Positions 1-64,000 are shown, counted from the first letter of the stretch. The stretch is DNA of 64,000 nt from the human T2T-CHM13v2.0 reference genome, Homo sapiens (GCA_009914755.4 CP086569.2:352001-416000); one strand, 5' to 3'. Program-made: numbers and translations. The notes: generated by a model from the letters alone, not told the origin.

Positions 1-353
1 ACACAATACACACACAAAACACACAAATACATACTACACACAACACAAACCACACTAAACACACACTGCACCCACAAAATACACATTGCACACAACACAT
101 GCAAACCACACTAAACACACACTATGCACAATACAGATACCAGACACCACACACTTACAACACAGAAAATACACACTACACACAACACACACAAACCACA
201 CTAAACACATACACTCTGCACAGGACAGACGTCACACTGAATACACACACATAACACATAATCTACAATTACACGCAACAGACGCAGACGTCGCTAAACA
301 CACACACTCTGCACAGGACAGACACCACACTAAACACGCACACACACACAAAT
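1..353. repeat. CA-rich degenerate tandem repeat (acacac / cacactaaacacaca motifs, about 50-90 bp irregular period)
   Basis: Almost pure C/A on the + strand; the motif ccacactaaacacaca recurs at about 50, 106, 196 and 328; the His/Thr-rich ORF at 86-418 is a reading artefact of it. Confidence 0.85.
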
Positions 354-456
354 GTGGTAGGTCACCCCCACATCATGAGCCCCAAGAGCCAGTTGATTTC
401 TGCCTCAACAACGGTTGATTTGAAGGAACTTACGATGAATTAAGATGTGGACATCT

Positions 457-515
457 GGCCGGGCGCGGTGGCTCACGCCTGTAATCCCAGCACTTTGGGA
501 GGCCGAGGCGCGTGG
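457..515 (+). mobile_element. Alu SINE 5' fragment (start of left arm)
   Basis: ggccgggcgcggtggctcacgcctgtaatcccagcactttgggaggccgaggcg matches the Alu 5' consensus. Confidence 0.8.
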
Positions 516-580
516 TGGTCAGGAGGGTTGGATCCTCATGAATGGGATTCATCCCTTATAAAAGAGACTTCAGGCCGGAC
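516..580. repeat. Fragment of an ancient interspersed repeat (motif ctcatgaatgggatt..cccttataaaagag); family not assigned
   Basis: Same motif family as 8830-9060; a widespread primate repeat motif recognised from memory only. Confidence 0.35.
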
Positions 581-589
581 GAAGGGGCG

Positions 590-741
590 CCCACCACGAA
601 GCCCGGCTAATTTTTTGTATTTTTGGTACAGACGGGGTTTCACCGTGTTGGCCAGGATGGTCTCGATCTCTTGACCTCGTGATCCGCCCTCCTTGGCCTC
701 CCAAAGCGCTGGGATTACAGGCGTGAGCTACCACACCCAGC
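590..741 (-). mobile_element. Alu SINE left-arm fragment, inverted relative to 457-515
   Basis: gcccggctaattttttgtatttttggtacagacggggtttcaccgtgttggccaggatggtctcgatctc...ggcgtgagctaccacacccagc is the reverse complement of the Alu left arm. Confidence 0.8.
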
Positions 742-1180
742 TTCTCAATTTTTTAAAACTGAGATTAAGTTTGCATGGCACGCAAGCAATCCTTTCAAAA
801 GTGAACAGTTCAGGGACGTGTGTGTGCATTTACAATGTTGCTGTACATTTACAATGAGAGGGATTGGGGGTGTGTCTGTTTCATAGGGTTCCTTCTGGGG
901 GAGCAAAATATTCTAGGAATAGAATTTTCCAGAAGGAAACCTATCAAACAGTCACAGCCCCAATCCCTCTCTCTCAGCCCCTGGCAGTCACAAAGCTCCT
1001 TTCTGTCTCAACGAATTTGTCTGTTCTGCGTTTATTTTTTAATAGACTTGCTTATACATAGAAAAGAATTTCAAAGTTTGGCCACTGCTGTGCTTGCTGC
1101 TGGTGGCTATGGGGTCTTGATACTTCTTAGGATATCCCCCTAGGATAACATCAGGGTTCCTGAGGACATCTGACTTCTGT

Positions 1181-1481
1181 TCTTTTTTTTTTTTTTTTGA
1201 GATGGAGTCTCGCTCTTGTCACCCAGGCTGGAGTGCAGTGGCTCGATCTCAGCTCATTGCAACCTCCGCCTCCTGGGTTCAAGCGATTCTCCTGCCTCAG
1301 CCTCCCGAGTAGCTGGGATGACAGGTGCCCTCCGCCACGCCCGGCTAATTTTTGTATTTTTAGTTGAGATAGGGTTTCACCATGTTGGCCAGGATGGTCT
1401 CGATCTCCTGACCTCAGGTGATCCACCTGCCTTGGCCTCCCAAAGTGCTGTAATTACAGGCATGAGCCACCGTGCCCGGCC
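1181..1481 (-). mobile_element. Alu SINE (full length, minus strand)
   Basis: Poly-T at 1181-1198, then gagatggagtctcgctcttgtcacccaggctggagtgcagtgg ... cgtgcccggcc; reverse-complement Alu consensus. Confidence 0.95.
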
Positions 1482-1485
1482 GAAT

Positions 1486-1782
1486 TCTGTTCTTTTTGTT
1501 GACATGGAGTTGCGCCCTCGTCACCCAGGCTGGAGTGCAGTGCTGTGGTCTTGGCTCACTGCAACCTCCGCCTCCTGGGTTCACACCATTCTCCTGCCTC
1601 AGTCTCCCGAGTACCTGGGACTACAGGTGCCCACCACCACGCCCGGCTAATTTTTGTATTTTTACTAGAGATGGGGTTTCTCCATGTTGGCCAGGCTGGT
1701 CTCGAACTCCTGACCTCAGGTGACTCACCTGCCTCAGCCTCCCCAAAGTGCTGGGATGACAGGCGTGAGCCACCACTCCCAG
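1486..1782 (-). mobile_element. Alu SINE (minus strand), tandem partner of 1181-1481 sharing the duplicated flank ttctgttcttttt
   Basis: T-rich leader, then gacatggagttgcgccctcgtcacccaggctggagtgcagtg ... gcgtgagccaccactcccag; about 10 percent divergent from the upstream copy. Confidence 0.95.
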
Positions 1783-61398: not shown

Positions 61399-61686
61399 TT
61401 TTTTGAGACGGAGTTCGCTCTTATTACCCAGGCTGGAGTGCAGTGGCATCATCTCGGCTCAGTGCAACCTCCGCCTCCCGGGTTCAAGCGACTCTCCTGC
61501 CTCAGCCTCTCGAGTAGCTGGGATTACAGGCACCCGCCACCACACCCAGCTAATTTTATATTTTTAGTAGAGATGGGGTTTCACCATGTTGGCCAGGCTG
61601 GTCTCCAACCTCTGACCTCAGGTGATCCACCTGCCTCGGACTCCCAAAGTGCTGGGATGACAGGCGTGAGCCACTGTGCCTGGCTG
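61399..61686 (-). mobile_element. Alu SINE (minus strand)
   Basis: ttttgagacggagttcgctcttattacccaggctggagtgcagtggcatcatctcggctcagtgcaacctccgcctcccgggttcaagcgactc ... ggcgtgagccactgtgcctggc. Confidence 0.95.
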
Positions 61687-61944
61687 ATCATATGTATTTT
61701 TAAAGACGGGGAAATAAAGCCAGCATTGCTCCTGATTTCCTTCCCTGGTCTTTGTCCCCTCCCAGAAGATAAGAAGACGCTTTAAATCCTCTCAGCCTTC
61801 CTTGTCTACTACAGACTTGCTAACGCACAGAGAAGACAACCCTGCATCTTAATGGCTGTCATCCTCTTTCATCCAGCTCCTGGCCAGTCCTTGGAAACGC
61901 CTGCCGGCCACACTACAGTCTTGCCATATTGCCCCCAAATGAGC

Positions 61945-62256
61945 TTATTTTTACTTATTTATTTATTTATTTTTGAGACAGACTTCTCACTCTGTCGCCA
62001 GGCTGGAGTGCAGTGGCATGATGTCAGCTCACTGCAACCTCCGCCTCCCGGGTTCAAGCGACTCTCCTGCCTCAGCCTCCTGAGTAGCTGGGATTACAGG
62101 CGCCAGCCACCACGCCCAGCTAATTTTTGTATTTTTAGTAGAGACGGGGTTTCACCATGTTGATTAGGCTGGTCTCAAACTCCTGACATCAGGTGGTCCA
62201 CCTGCCTCGGTCTCCCAAAGTGCTGGGATTATACGCGTGAGCCACTGTGCACGGCC
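61945..62256 (-). mobile_element. Alu SINE (minus strand) with a (TTTA)n leader
   Basis: tttacttatttatttatttatttttgagacagacttctcactctgtcgccaggctggagtgcagtggcatgatgtcagctcactgcaacctccgcctcccgggttcaagcgactc ... cgcgtgagccactgtgcacggcc. Confidence 0.93.
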
Positions 62257-62290
62257 AATCTGTGTAATCTATCATCTCTCTCTCTCTCTT

Positions 62291-62586
62291 ATTTATTTAT
62301 TTAGAGACAGAGTTTTGCTCTTGTTACCCAGGCTGGAGTGCAGTGGCATGATGTCAACTCACTGCAACCTCCGCCTCCGGGTTCAAGCCATTCTCCTGCT
62401 TCAGCCTCCTGAGTAGCTGGGATTACAGGCACCAGCAACCAAGCCCGGCTAATTTTTCTAGTTTTAGTAGAGATGGGGTTTCACCATGCTGGCCAGGCTG
62501 GTCTTGAACTCCTGACCTCAGGTGATCCACCCGCCTCGGCCTCCCAAAGTGCTGGGATTATAGGCGTGAGCCAACGCACCCGGCCT
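62291..62586 (-). mobile_element. Alu SINE (minus strand)
   Basis: ttatttatttatttagagacagagttttgctcttgttacccaggctggagtgcagtggcatgatgtcaactcactgcaacctccgcctccgggttcaagccattc ... ggcgtgagccaacgcacccggcc. Confidence 0.93.
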
Positions 62587-62719
62587 GATTTTGTATTTTT
62601 AGTAGAGATGGGGTTTCACCACGCTGGCCAGGCTGGTCTTGAACTCCTGACCTCAGTTGATCCACCCACCTCAGCCTCCCAAAGTGAGATTCCAGGCGTG
62701 AGCCACCGTGCCTGACCTA
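62587..62719 (-). mobile_element. Partial Alu (left arm, minus strand), tandem partial duplicate of the preceding Alu
   Basis: tgattttgtatttttagtagagatggggtttcaccacgctggccaggctggtcttgaactcctgacctcagttgatccacccacctcagcctcccaaagtgagattccaggcgtgagccaccgtgcctgacc. Confidence 0.88.
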
Positions 62720-62739
62720 TGCTGTCTTTTCATTTGCAT

Positions 62740-62940
62740 TTTTTTTTTTTGAGATGGAATTTCGCTCTTGTTGCCCAGGCTGGAGTGCAGTGGCGCAATC
62801 TCGGCTCACTGCAACCTCCGCCTCCCGGGTTCAAGCGGTTCTCCTGCCTCAGCCTCCCAACTAGCTGGGATGACAGGCATGCACCACCATGCCCGGCTAA
62901 TTTTGTATTTTTAGTAGACACAGGGTTTCAACATGTTGAC
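62740..62940 (-). mobile_element. Alu SINE, 5'-truncated (minus strand)
   Basis: Poly-T, then gagatggaatttcgctcttgttgcccaggctggagtgcagtggcgcaatctcggctcactgcaacctccgcctcccgggttcaagcggttc ... ggcatgcaccaccatgcccggctaattttgtatttttagtagacacagggtttcaacatgttgacc. Confidence 0.9.
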
Positions 62941-63699
62941 CTGGCCTGGATACCACTTTTAATTTTACCTTGTTCTGAATAGTTTCGTATTCCTCTGACT
63001 ATGTGGAAGCTTTGTTCTGGGATTCTGTGAAGTCACTTGGAGGTAGTTTGAACCCTTCAGGTCTTGGTTTCATTCTGTTGGAATGAAGAGTAATGTTTAA
63101 TTCGGGATTAATTTGTCCAAGCTACTGAGGAAAGGTCCTCCTCACTATCCTACCTAACGCCCCATGAACTATGGAAGTTTTCCAATCTAGAAGGTCAGAA
63201 CAGGCACCTTTTGAACATTGTGTGAACGCTGGTCACTATTCCCTGTTTCCATGTGTCATTTCTGTTGGTTCTTTCCCTCACCTTGAATAATTTCCTCATA
63301 GACACATGTCAATCAGTTCTCAGCCCAACGCTCTCTAGGTGGACCTTCTGCAGAAGGTCTCTATGCTTCTTTCTCCACGTGGATCTCTCATATCTGCTAC
63401 TCTGTCCTGTGAACTCTTCCTGTCTTGGTCTCCCCAGACTCTCAGCTCCACCTTCTCAACACAAGAGGCCTTCCAGTTTCCATCTGTGTTTTGCCTCCTT
63501 GTACTGCCGCCTATAAAATCTCTCAGGCAGTAAGCCAGGAGATCATAGGGCTCACTGCATTACTTTTCCATCTCTCAGAGATCATTGTCTTTCATTGCTT
63601 CATGTCCAGGGTCTTGAACGCCATCATTTCATGTATTATGCCCAGTGGAAGATAATTCTGATCTCTGTTACTTCATGTTGGTCAAAACCAGAAGCCTGC

Positions 63700-64000
63700 A
63701 TCTATCTATCTACCATTCTATCTTTCGATCTATCTACCTACCTACCGACCTATCTACCAGTCATCTTATCTATCATATTCTCTATCTACCTATTATCCAC
63801 CTACCTATCTACCTACCTACCAACCATCTTTCTACCATATTCTCTGTCTACCTATCCGTCCATCCATCTACCTACCAATCATCTTTATCTATCATATTAT
63901 CTATCTATTCATCTATGTGTCTATCTACCTACCTAGCTAACTGTCTTCCAATCATCTTATCTGTCATATTCTCTTATCTACCTATTATCCATCTACCTAT
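63700..64000. repeat. (TCTA)n/(CCTA)n-type complex tandem repeat with a ~90-100-bp higher-order period, running off the window end
   Basis: catctatctatctaccattctatctttcgatctatctacctacctaccgacctatctacc...; the motif caatcatctt(t)atct(g/a)tcatatt recurs at about 63770, 63880 and 63950. Confidence 0.88.

What the first reader, a model, noticed from the sequence alone, without database searches (positions are those of the whole stretch)
1..64000. Combined signature (VNTR density, Alu density, CpG retention, duplication frequency) points to a subtelomeric or pseudoautosomal-type high-recombination domain
Large G-rich or strand-asymmetric minisatellites cluster in distal, recombination-hot chromosome ends, with PAR1 and autosomal subtelomeres as the textbook examples. 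The same domains are Alu-dense and shaped by GC-biased gene conversion. No (TTAGGG)n or subtelomeric-duplicon hallmark is visible, so the window would be proximal to the actual terminal repeat. This is an inference about genomic context, not a feature call.
Basis: inference. Interest (0 to 1): 0.5.

Follow-up and report, generated by a model that had tools for sequence, protein, structure and literature searches.

The report
Tandem-repeat cluster in Alu-rich primate DNA
This is ordinary non-coding primate (probably human) DNA unusually crowded with tandem repeats and Alu elements; it more likely than not lies near a chromosome end, but these tools could not place it.

Summary
The observation mostly holds. 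Non-Alu tandem repeats cover 31.5% of the window (0-39 bp in shuffles) and Alu covers 27% (66 pieces). L1 is scarce (about 4.6%). CpG o/e is 0.36 overall and 0.41-0.45 in unique DNA. Two legs are weaker. "Duplication" is only local tandem duplication. CpG retention inside Alus (35%) is what their age predicts.

I could not place the window on a chromosome. About 11,500 aa of unique ORFs from both strands found no protein homolog. Repeat motifs occur in no searchable paper or supplement. A unique 40-mer is absent from the contig collections.

The context inference therefore rests on published base rates. The 44-bp array carries 61 G-quadruplex motifs. [quoted passage not shown] GC-rich long-unit VNTRs are 21-fold enriched in the last 5 Mb.

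Against the inference, most arrays here have 50% GC or less, a class spread evenly along arms. The Alu substitution spectrum gives a non-CpG GC* of 0.44-0.475, indistinguishable from the genome mean of about 0.435, so long-term GC-biased gene conversion is not seen.

My estimates are about 0.6-0.65 for a distal location and about 0.1 for PAR1. This is a known kind of region and of low interest.

The parts
2401..3565 (.). AT-rich (20% GC) degenerate TCTA/TGTA-based minisatellite with nested periods of 17/36/80/396 bp
   Evidence: TRF; composition
9159..11932 (-). 44-bp minisatellite, 63 copies, 95% matches, 63% GC. The G-rich strand is minus, with about one G-quadruplex motif per unit.
   Evidence: TRF; 61 of the 70 minus-strand G4 motifs fall here
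12020..12471 (.). Degenerate (CT)n-rich tract next to the 44-mer array
   Evidence: TRF; composition
18057..18768 (.). (TCTT)n polypyrimidine microsatellite, about 180 copies, within 100 bp of the tail side of the antisense Alu at 18860-19142
23052..29331 (.). 67-bp polypyrimidine VNTR (199-bp higher-order period), about 91 copies, 95% matches, 6.28 kb with only 8 G and 171 A
   Evidence: TRF; base counts; sequence of both ends
29332..29637 (-). Old antisense Alu (13% non-CpG divergence) whose poly-T tail runs straight into the 67-mer array
30545..31810 (.). Degenerate TG/TA-rich repeat block
   Evidence: TRF
32677..33945 (-). Alu-derived tandem array: Alu positions 174-288 plus (TAT)n and a short spacer, 153-171-bp period, about 8 copies
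35674..36132 (.). (AAGA)n polypurine microsatellite
42971..43202 (.). 46-bp minisatellite, 5 copies
49852..51723 (.). (ATCC)n, about 470 degenerate copies, 1.9 kb
51887..52267 (.). (TCTT)n / 69-bp polypyrimidine array
54113..54770 (-). Three partial Alus in tandem with a 188-bp period (an Alu-derived minisatellite)
55285..56926 (+). 29-bp G-rich minisatellite (58% GC, G 47%), about 56 copies, 91% matches, flanked by CpG-rich unique DNA
37445..38354 (.). CpG-island-like unique patch (54% GC, CpG o/e 0.71) between two Alus, with no recognisable gene
1..64000 (.). 66 Alu pieces (27% of the bases; 52 on minus, 14 on plus) and five L1 3'-end fragments (about 4.6%: 5830-6640, 8210-8900, 14550-14870, 16260-17070, 21090-21400)

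Best explanation
The window is non-coding euchromatin of an Alu-bearing primate, most likely human. It is Alu-rich and L1-poor, has no detectable protein-coding exon, and holds a cluster of tandem arrays with at least three different origins.

1. Two are classical GC-rich, strand-asymmetric minisatellites: the 44-mer, with one G-quadruplex motif per unit, and the 29-mer.
2. Several are polypyrimidine, AT-rich or tetranucleotide arrays that grew out of simple sequence. Several sit on Alu poly(A) tails. The 6.3-kb 67-mer array continues directly from the tail of an old antisense Alu.
3. Two are local tandem duplications of Alu pieces.

The arrays presumably expand by replication slippage and unequal exchange (inferred). 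The strong antisense Alu bias and the T>A skew suggest that the + strand is the sense strand of a long intron (inferred).

On published base rates for GC-rich, G4-forming minisatellites, the window most likely lies in the distal part of a chromosome arm, within roughly the terminal 10%. I put the probability at about 0.6-0.65, with PAR1 as one candidate at about 0.1. This placement is inferred, not shown.
For: Repeat content.

No exon: three searches with about 11,500 aa of unique ORFs from both strands returned nothing. There is no Rfam family or tRNA.

Alu-tail origin: the array runs into the poly-T tail of the Alu at 29332-29637. Smaller T-rich arrays directly abut the tails of antisense Alus at 34947-35102, 44650-44842, 58091-58175 and 61297-61402.

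Intron-like asymmetry: Alus are 14 plus and 52 minus (p = 3e-6; p = 6.5e-5 after collapsing tandem copies). In strictly unique DNA the TA skew is +5.7% (SE 1.0) and the GC skew +1.8% (SE 1.1).

Distal location: 61 G4 motifs lie in the 44-mer array. Of such minisatellites, 60% lie in the terminal 10% of arms and 50% in the terminal 5% (PMC3486850). GC-rich long-unit VNTRs are 21-fold enriched in the last 5 Mb (PMC7608644). CpG o/e in unique DNA is raised across the window.
Against: There is no placement. Only two arrays (the 44-mer at 63% GC and the 29-mer at 58%) belong to the GC-rich class that clusters at chromosome ends. Arrays with 50% GC or less are evenly distributed along arms.

The Alu-based non-CpG GC* of 0.44-0.475 (bootstrap intervals spanning 0.40-0.51 across the three thresholds) does not differ from the genome mean of 0.435 derived from PMC2346554. 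That paper reports GC* rising towards telomeres.

Unique DNA is only 44-46% GC. Only 6 exact PRDM9 13-mers occur. There are no TTAGGG arrays.

The skews could reflect replication rather than transcription.
Confidence: 0.6

Rival explanations
1. The window is interstitial. It lies in an Alu-rich, gene-dense isochore far from any telomere, for example in a long intron on chromosomes 1, 16, 17, 19 or 22. The repeat cluster would then reflect local Alu-tail-seeded microsatellite growth plus two chance GC-rich minisatellites.
For: 40% of minisatellites with at least 30 G4 motifs lie outside the terminal 10% of arms. Arrays with 50% GC or less, which make up most of the repeat mass here, are evenly distributed. 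GC* is at the genome mean. Unique DNA is only 44-46% GC. There are no subtelomeric hallmarks.
Against: Two long GC-rich asymmetric minisatellites lie within 46 kb of each other. Published enrichments for such arrays near chromosome ends are 7- to 21-fold. CpG o/e in unique DNA is raised across the window.
Confidence: 0.32
2. The window lies in pseudoautosomal region 1 (Xp/Yp). The obligatory male crossover there gives an extreme recombination rate and a very high density of minisatellites.
For: GC is 46.4% against 48% for PAR1, and PAR1 is described as dense in repeats and hard to assemble (PMC4102438). Minisatellite-like arrays with periods of 4-101 bp are reported at PAR1 PRDM9 peaks. Clusters of homopurine/homopyrimidine tracts are reported for the PAR (Bacolla 2006, as cited). 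The window has 13 pure tracts of 100 bp or more, plus a 6.3-kb array that is 97% pyrimidine. Alu at 27% and low L1 match my recollection of the X-chromosome paper, which I did not verify here.
Against: PAR1 is only about 2.7 Mb, so the prior is small. No strong GC-biased substitution shows in the Alus, although PAR1 has strong gcBGC. Only 6 PRDM9 13-mers occur, and none of the arrays is built from them. tblastn with CD99, SHOX and SLC25A6, recalled from memory, found nothing. That is weak evidence, because most of PAR1 is non-coding.
Confidence: 0.1
3. The repeat density is an assembly artefact: collapsed or chimeric long-read contigs, or mis-joined arrays.
For: Arrays this long and this pure are hard to assemble. 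PAR1-like sequence is noted as difficult.
Against: The arrays are embedded in normal unique DNA with intact Alus and clean junctions. They show ordinary internal divergence of 5-30% and higher-order structure. There are no N runs.
Confidence: 0.03

Closest known systems
GC-rich G-quadruplex-forming subtelomeric minisatellites (CEB1 at 2q37.3, CEB25 at 10q26.3, HRAS1 at 11p15.5)
   Same: The 44-mer (63% GC, strong G/C strand bias, one G4 motif per unit, 63 units) and the 29-mer (58% GC, G 47%) have the same unit-size range, composition and asymmetry (Table 1 of PMC3486850).
   Different: The sequences are unrelated to those motifs. Neither location nor polymorphism is known. The 29-mer has no canonical short-loop G4 motif (0 motifs).
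VNTR-dense subtelomeric introns of long brain-expressed genes (PTPRN2 at 7q36.3, DLGAP2 at 8p23.3)
   Same: Many VNTRs sit in a long exon-free stretch, with Alu and skew asymmetry suggesting transcription. Such genes carry the most VNTRs (PMC7608644).
   Different: No exon or gene identity could be established. Most arrays here are not GC-rich.
Human pseudoautosomal region 1
   Same: GC near 48%, a high density of repeats and minisatellite-like arrays, and homopurine/homopyrimidine clusters.
   Different: No evidence of X/Y origin, no PAR1 gene and no detectable gBGC signature in the Alus.
Alu poly(A)-tail-derived microsatellites, as in the (GAA)n/(GAAA)n families (established knowledge, e.g. 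Arcot et al. 1995, cited from memory)
   Same: T-rich and TC-rich arrays start exactly at the tails of antisense Alus.
   Different: The 67-mer array has gone much further than usual, reaching a 6.3-kb higher-order VNTR with 67/199-bp periods.

Membership tests
Subtelomeric domain (last ~5 Mb, or terminal 10% of a chromosome arm) | Physical distance to the telomere | not testable with these tools
   No primate reference genome is available. The gene-based route failed. Motif searches in papers and supplements failed. Contig scans found nothing.
Subtelomeric domain (last ~5 Mb, or terminal 10% of a chromosome arm) | Terminal hallmarks: (TTAGGG)n or degenerate telomere arrays | tested here: not met
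   There are no tandem TTAGGG/CCCTAA runs, only 4 isolated hexamers per strand. This excludes only the most terminal tens of kilobases. Subtelomeric duplicons could not be tested.
Subtelomeric domain (last ~5 Mb, or terminal 10% of a chromosome arm) | Enrichment for VNTRs with GC above 60% and units longer than 15 bp, and for minisatellites with at least 30 G4 motifs | tested here: met
   The 44-mer has 63% GC, 63 copies and 61 G4 motifs. The 29-mer, at 58% GC, falls just short. Published enrichments are 21-fold, and 60% of such arrays lie in the terminal 10%. This is an associated feature, not a defining one.
High-recombination / gBGC domain | Stationary GC content (GC*) well above the genome mean | tested here: not met
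   The non-CpG GC* from 59 Alus is 0.444-0.475, with bootstrap intervals spanning 0.40-0.51 across the three thresholds. The genome-average rates give 0.435. Limits: one recalled Alu consensus was used, and no control region was run with the same method.
High-recombination / gBGC domain | Measured cM/Mb, or density of active PRDM9 sites | not testable with these tools
   Only motif counts are possible: 6 exact CCNCCNTNNCCNC matches in 64 kb, none inside the arrays.
Pseudoautosomal region 1 | Location at Xp/Yp with X-Y identity, and presence of PAR1 genes | tested here: inconclusive
   tblastn with recalled CD99, SHOX and SLC25A6 found no exon. No protein homolog of any unique ORF was found. 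Most of PAR1 is non-coding, so this excludes little.
Pseudoautosomal region 1 | Composition: about 48% GC, repeat-dense, homopurine/homopyrimidine clusters | tested here: met
   GC is 46.4%. Non-Alu tandem repeats cover 31.5%. There are 13 pure R/Y runs of 100 bp or more. Compare. These features are not specific to PAR1.
Classical hypervariable minisatellite | Unit of 10-100 bp, tandem head-to-tail, GC-rich with purine/pyrimidine strand asymmetry | tested here: met
   True of the 44-mer and 29-mer arrays.
Classical hypervariable minisatellite | Length polymorphism between individuals | not testable with these tools
   Only one allele is available.
Alu-tail-derived simple repeat | The array starts at the 3' A-tail of an Alu and is A/G-rich on the Alu sense strand | tested here: met
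   The 67-mer array abuts the poly-T tail of the antisense Alu at 29332-29637. The same holds for the arrays at 34947-35102, 44650-44842, 58091-58175 and 61297-61402.

The most novel reading that the evidence does not exclude
The window could be an interstitial 'subtelomere-like' island. This would be a cluster of G4-forming and polypyrimidine VNTRs far from any chromosome end, perhaps a relic of an ancestral chromosome end, or a locally recombination-hot or replication-fragile intron. Its 6.3-kb Alu-tail-seeded polypyrimidine array would then rank among the longest H-DNA-prone tracts in the genome.
Probability: 0.1. Interest if true: 0.4.

Novelty: already known. Interest (0 to 1): 0.15.

Why it matters
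It matters little beyond annotation. If the window is distal or in PAR1, it is a textbook example of VNTR clustering at chromosome ends.

It has three practical consequences.
- The arrays produce very long spurious ORFs, up to 2,191 aa, which can mislead gene callers.
- The 44-mer G4 array and the 6.3-kb polypyrimidine array are plausible sites of replication difficulty and length polymorphism.
- Most of the repeat mass carries no positional information, so repeat density alone should not be read as proof of a subtelomeric location.

Tried and rejected
Placement through genes:
- An exact look-up of a 139-aa ORF found nothing.
- Three protein searches with concatenated unique ORFs all returned no hit at E <= 1e-3. 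The queries were 1,682 aa, 4,948 aa (+ strand) and 4,873 aa (- strand).
- tblastn with CD99, SHOX, SLC25A6 and myoglobin, recalled from memory, found nothing. Myoglobin was tried because its intron 1 has a long (GGAT)n.

Placement through the literature:
- VNTR motif substrings occur in no paper's full text.
- They occur in no held supplement.
- The minisatellite tables of PMC3486850 carry coordinates but no motif sequences. They are truncated before motif size 44, and an array-length look-up found nothing.

Placement through public contigs: a unique 40-mer is absent from the metagenome and GTDB contig collections.

RNA genes: there are no Rfam gathering-score hits and no tRNAs. Around the CpG-rich patch there are only sub-threshold Alu-related hits.

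[quoted passage not shown] I rejected it because 64 kb would have to include rRNA genes and none is found.

Orientation rule (G-rich strand pointing to the telomere): rejected. GC-rich minisatellites cluster at ends irrespective of orientation.

Bacolla 2006 and the X-chromosome paper are not held. Their contents are used only as cited by other papers, or as my own recollection.
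Full report
WHAT IS IN THE WINDOW

The sequence is primate DNA. A recalled AluS consensus finds 66 Alu pieces covering 17,275 bp (27%), most at 85-94% identity. Overall GC is 46.4% and there are no Ns.

Tandem Repeats Finder rows cover 25,010 bp (39%). Of these, 20,129 bp (31.5% of the window) lie outside Alu. Five dinucleotide-preserving shuffles give 0-39 bp, so the repeat load is far beyond chance. It is also about ten times the roughly 3% quoted for VNTRs genome-wide (abstract of PMC10234305).

The large arrays are:
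- 2401-3565: AT-rich, 20% GC, periods of 17/80 bp.
- 9159-11932: 44-mer, 63 copies, 95% matches, 63% GC, C 42% / G 21%.
- 23052-29331: 67-mer, about 91 copies, 95% matches, 199-bp higher-order period, with only 8 G and 171 A in 6,280 nt.
- 30545-31810: degenerate TG-rich block.
- 32677-33945: Alu right-arm fragment plus (TAT)n, about 8 copies.
- 49852-51723: (ATCC)n, about 470 copies.
- 55285-56926: 29-mer, about 56 copies, 58% GC, G 47%.

Smaller arrays are (CT)n at 12020-12471, (TCTT)n at 18057-18768 and 51887-52267, (AAGA)n at 35674-36132, a 46-mer with 5 copies at 42971-43202, and three partial Alus in tandem at 54113-54770.

After masking Alu and tandem repeats, the only similarities within the window are L1 3' ends, about 2.9 kb or 4.6%. 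The window is therefore Alu-rich and L1-poor, with no segmental duplication inside it. The 'duplication frequency' in the finding amounts to local tandem duplication only. No telomere-like array is present.

CpG

CpG o/e is 0.36 for the whole window, 0.45 in Alu and 0.10 in the non-Alu arrays. In unique DNA it is 0.41-0.45. The unique DNA is raised in every 8-kb bin, at 0.37-0.54. Individual blocks mostly fall between 0.3 and 0.5. A few patches are richer: 37445-38354 (0.71), 53248-54112 (0.76) and 57123-58072 (0.65). So the raised CpG level is regional and not one island.

'CpG retention' in the Alus is not special. 35% of consensus CpG dinucleotides survive at a mean non-CpG divergence of 5.9%. 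With the human-lineage rates in Table 3 of Duret & Arndt (CpG transitions 0.054 against about 0.0055 per non-CpG site; PMC2346554), about 31-40% survival is expected.

IS THERE A GC-BIASED GENE CONVERSION SIGNATURE?

I used the Alus as sequences of known ancestry. I excluded consensus CpG sites and columns that looked subfamily-diagnostic, and I collapsed the tandem Alu copies, which left 59 elements.

The non-CpG stationary GC content is 0.460, 0.475 or 0.444, depending on the exclusion threshold. The bootstrap 95% intervals for the three thresholds together span 0.40-0.51. The same quantity from the genome-average rates is (0.0031+0.0009)/(0.0031+0.0009+0.0039+0.0013) = 0.435.

The window cannot be distinguished from the genome mean. 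The same paper shows GC* rising with crossover rate and towards telomeres.

The test has limits. It relies on a single recalled consensus. It averages over tens of millions of years. I could run no control region with the same method.

ATTEMPTS TO PLACE THE WINDOW

No primate reference is available in these tools, so I tried indirect routes. None worked.
- Rfam at gathering thresholds finds nothing, and ARAGORN finds no tRNA.
- An exact look-up of a 139-aa ORF is not on record.
- Three protein searches found no homolog at E <= 1e-3. They used about 11,500 aa of stop-to-stop ORFs of at least 45-47 aa from both strands, outside Alu, tandem repeats and L1.
- tblastn with recalled CD99, SHOX, SLC25A6 and myoglobin found nothing.
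- Motif substrings of the three main VNTRs occur in no paper text and in no held supplement.
- The genome-wide minisatellite tables of Piazza et al. are truncated before unit size 44.
- A unique 40-mer is absent from the metagenome and GTDB contig collections.

The window therefore has no detectable coding exon, so it is intergenic or deep intronic. Its chromosomal position remains unknown.

WHAT THE PUBLISHED BASE RATES SAY

Linthorst et al. report these enrichments in the last 5 Mb of chromosome arms: VNTR structural variants 7.1-fold, and VNTRs with GC above 60% and units longer than 15 bp 21.1-fold (PMC7608644).

Piazza et al. catalogued 353,460 human minisatellites. Those above 50% GC concentrate at the arm ends. 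Those at or below 50% GC are evenly distributed. Among the 504 arrays with at least 30 G-quadruplex motifs, 313 (60%) lie in the terminal 10% of arms and 253 (50%) in the terminal 5%, irrespective of orientation (PMC3486850).

The 44-mer array here has 61 canonical G4 motifs on its G-rich (minus) strand, so it belongs to that class. The 29-mer is also above 50% GC. The other arrays, which make up most of the repeat mass, carry no positional information by this criterion.

I start from a 10% prior for the terminal tenth of an arm. The G4 array alone gives a posterior of 0.6. The second GC-rich array and the raised CpG level push this up. The ordinary GC* and the modest 44-46% GC of the unique DNA pull it down. 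I settle on about 0.6-0.65 for a distal location.

PAR1

PAR1 is described as 48% GC, exceptionally dense in repeats and hard to assemble. Minisatellite-like arrays of 4-101 bp sit at its PRDM9 peaks (PMC4102438). Papers citing Bacolla et al. 2006 report clusters of homopurine/homopyrimidine tracts in the PAR and in brain-expressed genes. I could not read that paper.

The window matches this description: 46.4% GC, 13 pure purine or pyrimidine runs of 100 bp or more, and a 6.3-kb array that is 97% pyrimidine. From my recollection of the X-chromosome paper, which is not held, PAR1 is also about 29% Alu and poor in L1.

But PAR1 is only about 2.7 Mb, and its strong gcBGC is not mirrored in the Alus here. 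No PAR1 exon was found either. I put PAR1 at about 0.1.

HOW THE ARRAYS PROBABLY AROSE

The right end of the 67-mer array degenerates into (TTCC)n/(TTTC)n-like sequence. It then runs without a break into the poly-T tail of an old antisense Alu at 29332-29637. Its left end starts abruptly in unique DNA.

Smaller (TTTC)n, (TTTA)n and (TTTTA)n arrays directly abut the tails of antisense Alus at 34947-35102, 44650-44842, 58091-58175, 61297-61402 and 19331-19369. This is the well-known route from an Alu A-tail to a microsatellite. Here it has gone on to a higher-order VNTR.

Two further arrays are tandem duplications of Alu fragments. Expansion by slippage and unequal exchange is inferred, not shown.

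OTHER OBSERVATIONS

Alus are strongly biased to the minus strand: 52 against 14 (p = 3e-6), or 14 plus out of 59 after collapsing tandem copies (p = 6.5e-5). Strictly unique DNA has T>A by 5.7% (SE 1.0) and G>C by 1.8% (SE 1.1) on the + strand.

Both fit the + strand being the sense strand of a long intron. This reading rests on established knowledge of transcription-associated skew and antisense retention of repeats, recalled from memory. A replication skew domain is an alternative.

VERDICT

It is partly real for CpG. For duplication it is limited to tandem events.

It is supported by the base rates for one or two of the arrays, but not by the substitution spectrum. This kind of region is well known, and nothing here calls for a new mechanism.

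Noticed in passing
window 1-64000 (Alu list): Alu elements show a strong strand bias, 52 on minus against 14 on plus. Strictly unique DNA shows T>A (+5.7%) and G>C (+1.8%) skews on the + strand. This is the pattern expected for the sense strand of a long transcribed intron, or for a replication skew domain.
   Followed up: partly
window 23052-29637: The 6.28-kb 67-bp polypyrimidine VNTR (8 G in 6,280 nt) runs directly into the poly-T tail of an old antisense Alu. It appears to have grown from that tail, and it is a very long H-DNA-prone mirror-like tract.
   Followed up: partly
window 32677-33945 and 54113-54770: Two tandem arrays are built from Alu fragments. One has about 8 copies of Alu positions 174-288 plus (TAT)n and a spacer. 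The other has three partial Alus with a 188-bp period.
   Followed up: partly
window 37445-38354, 53248-54112, 57123-58072: These unique patches have CpG o/e of 0.65-0.76 at 44-54% GC. One sits between two Alus and two flank the 29-mer G-rich array. There is no RNA family, tRNA or protein homolog, so their nature (promoter, enhancer or young unrecognised repeat) is unexplained.
   Followed up: partly
window 8979-12146 (-), 22861-29436 (+), 55129-57123 (+): The minisatellites lack stop codons in several frames. They give spurious ORFs of 1,055, 2,191 and 664 aa, which a prokaryote-style gene caller would report.
   Followed up: no
window 21093-21393: A 161-bp segment of an old L1-like 3' end is tandemly duplicated (1.9 copies, 92% matches).
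   Followed up: no
window 8-214 and 63700-64000: Both window ends fall inside simple-repeat blocks: CA-rich at the left, and (ATCT)n / 63-bp ACCT-rich at the right, cut by the window edge. The repeat cluster may therefore extend beyond the 64 kb.
   Followed up: no
window 61297-61402: A clean (TTTTA)n of about 22 copies sits on an Alu tail. It is likely a polymorphic pentanucleotide marker.
   Followed up: no
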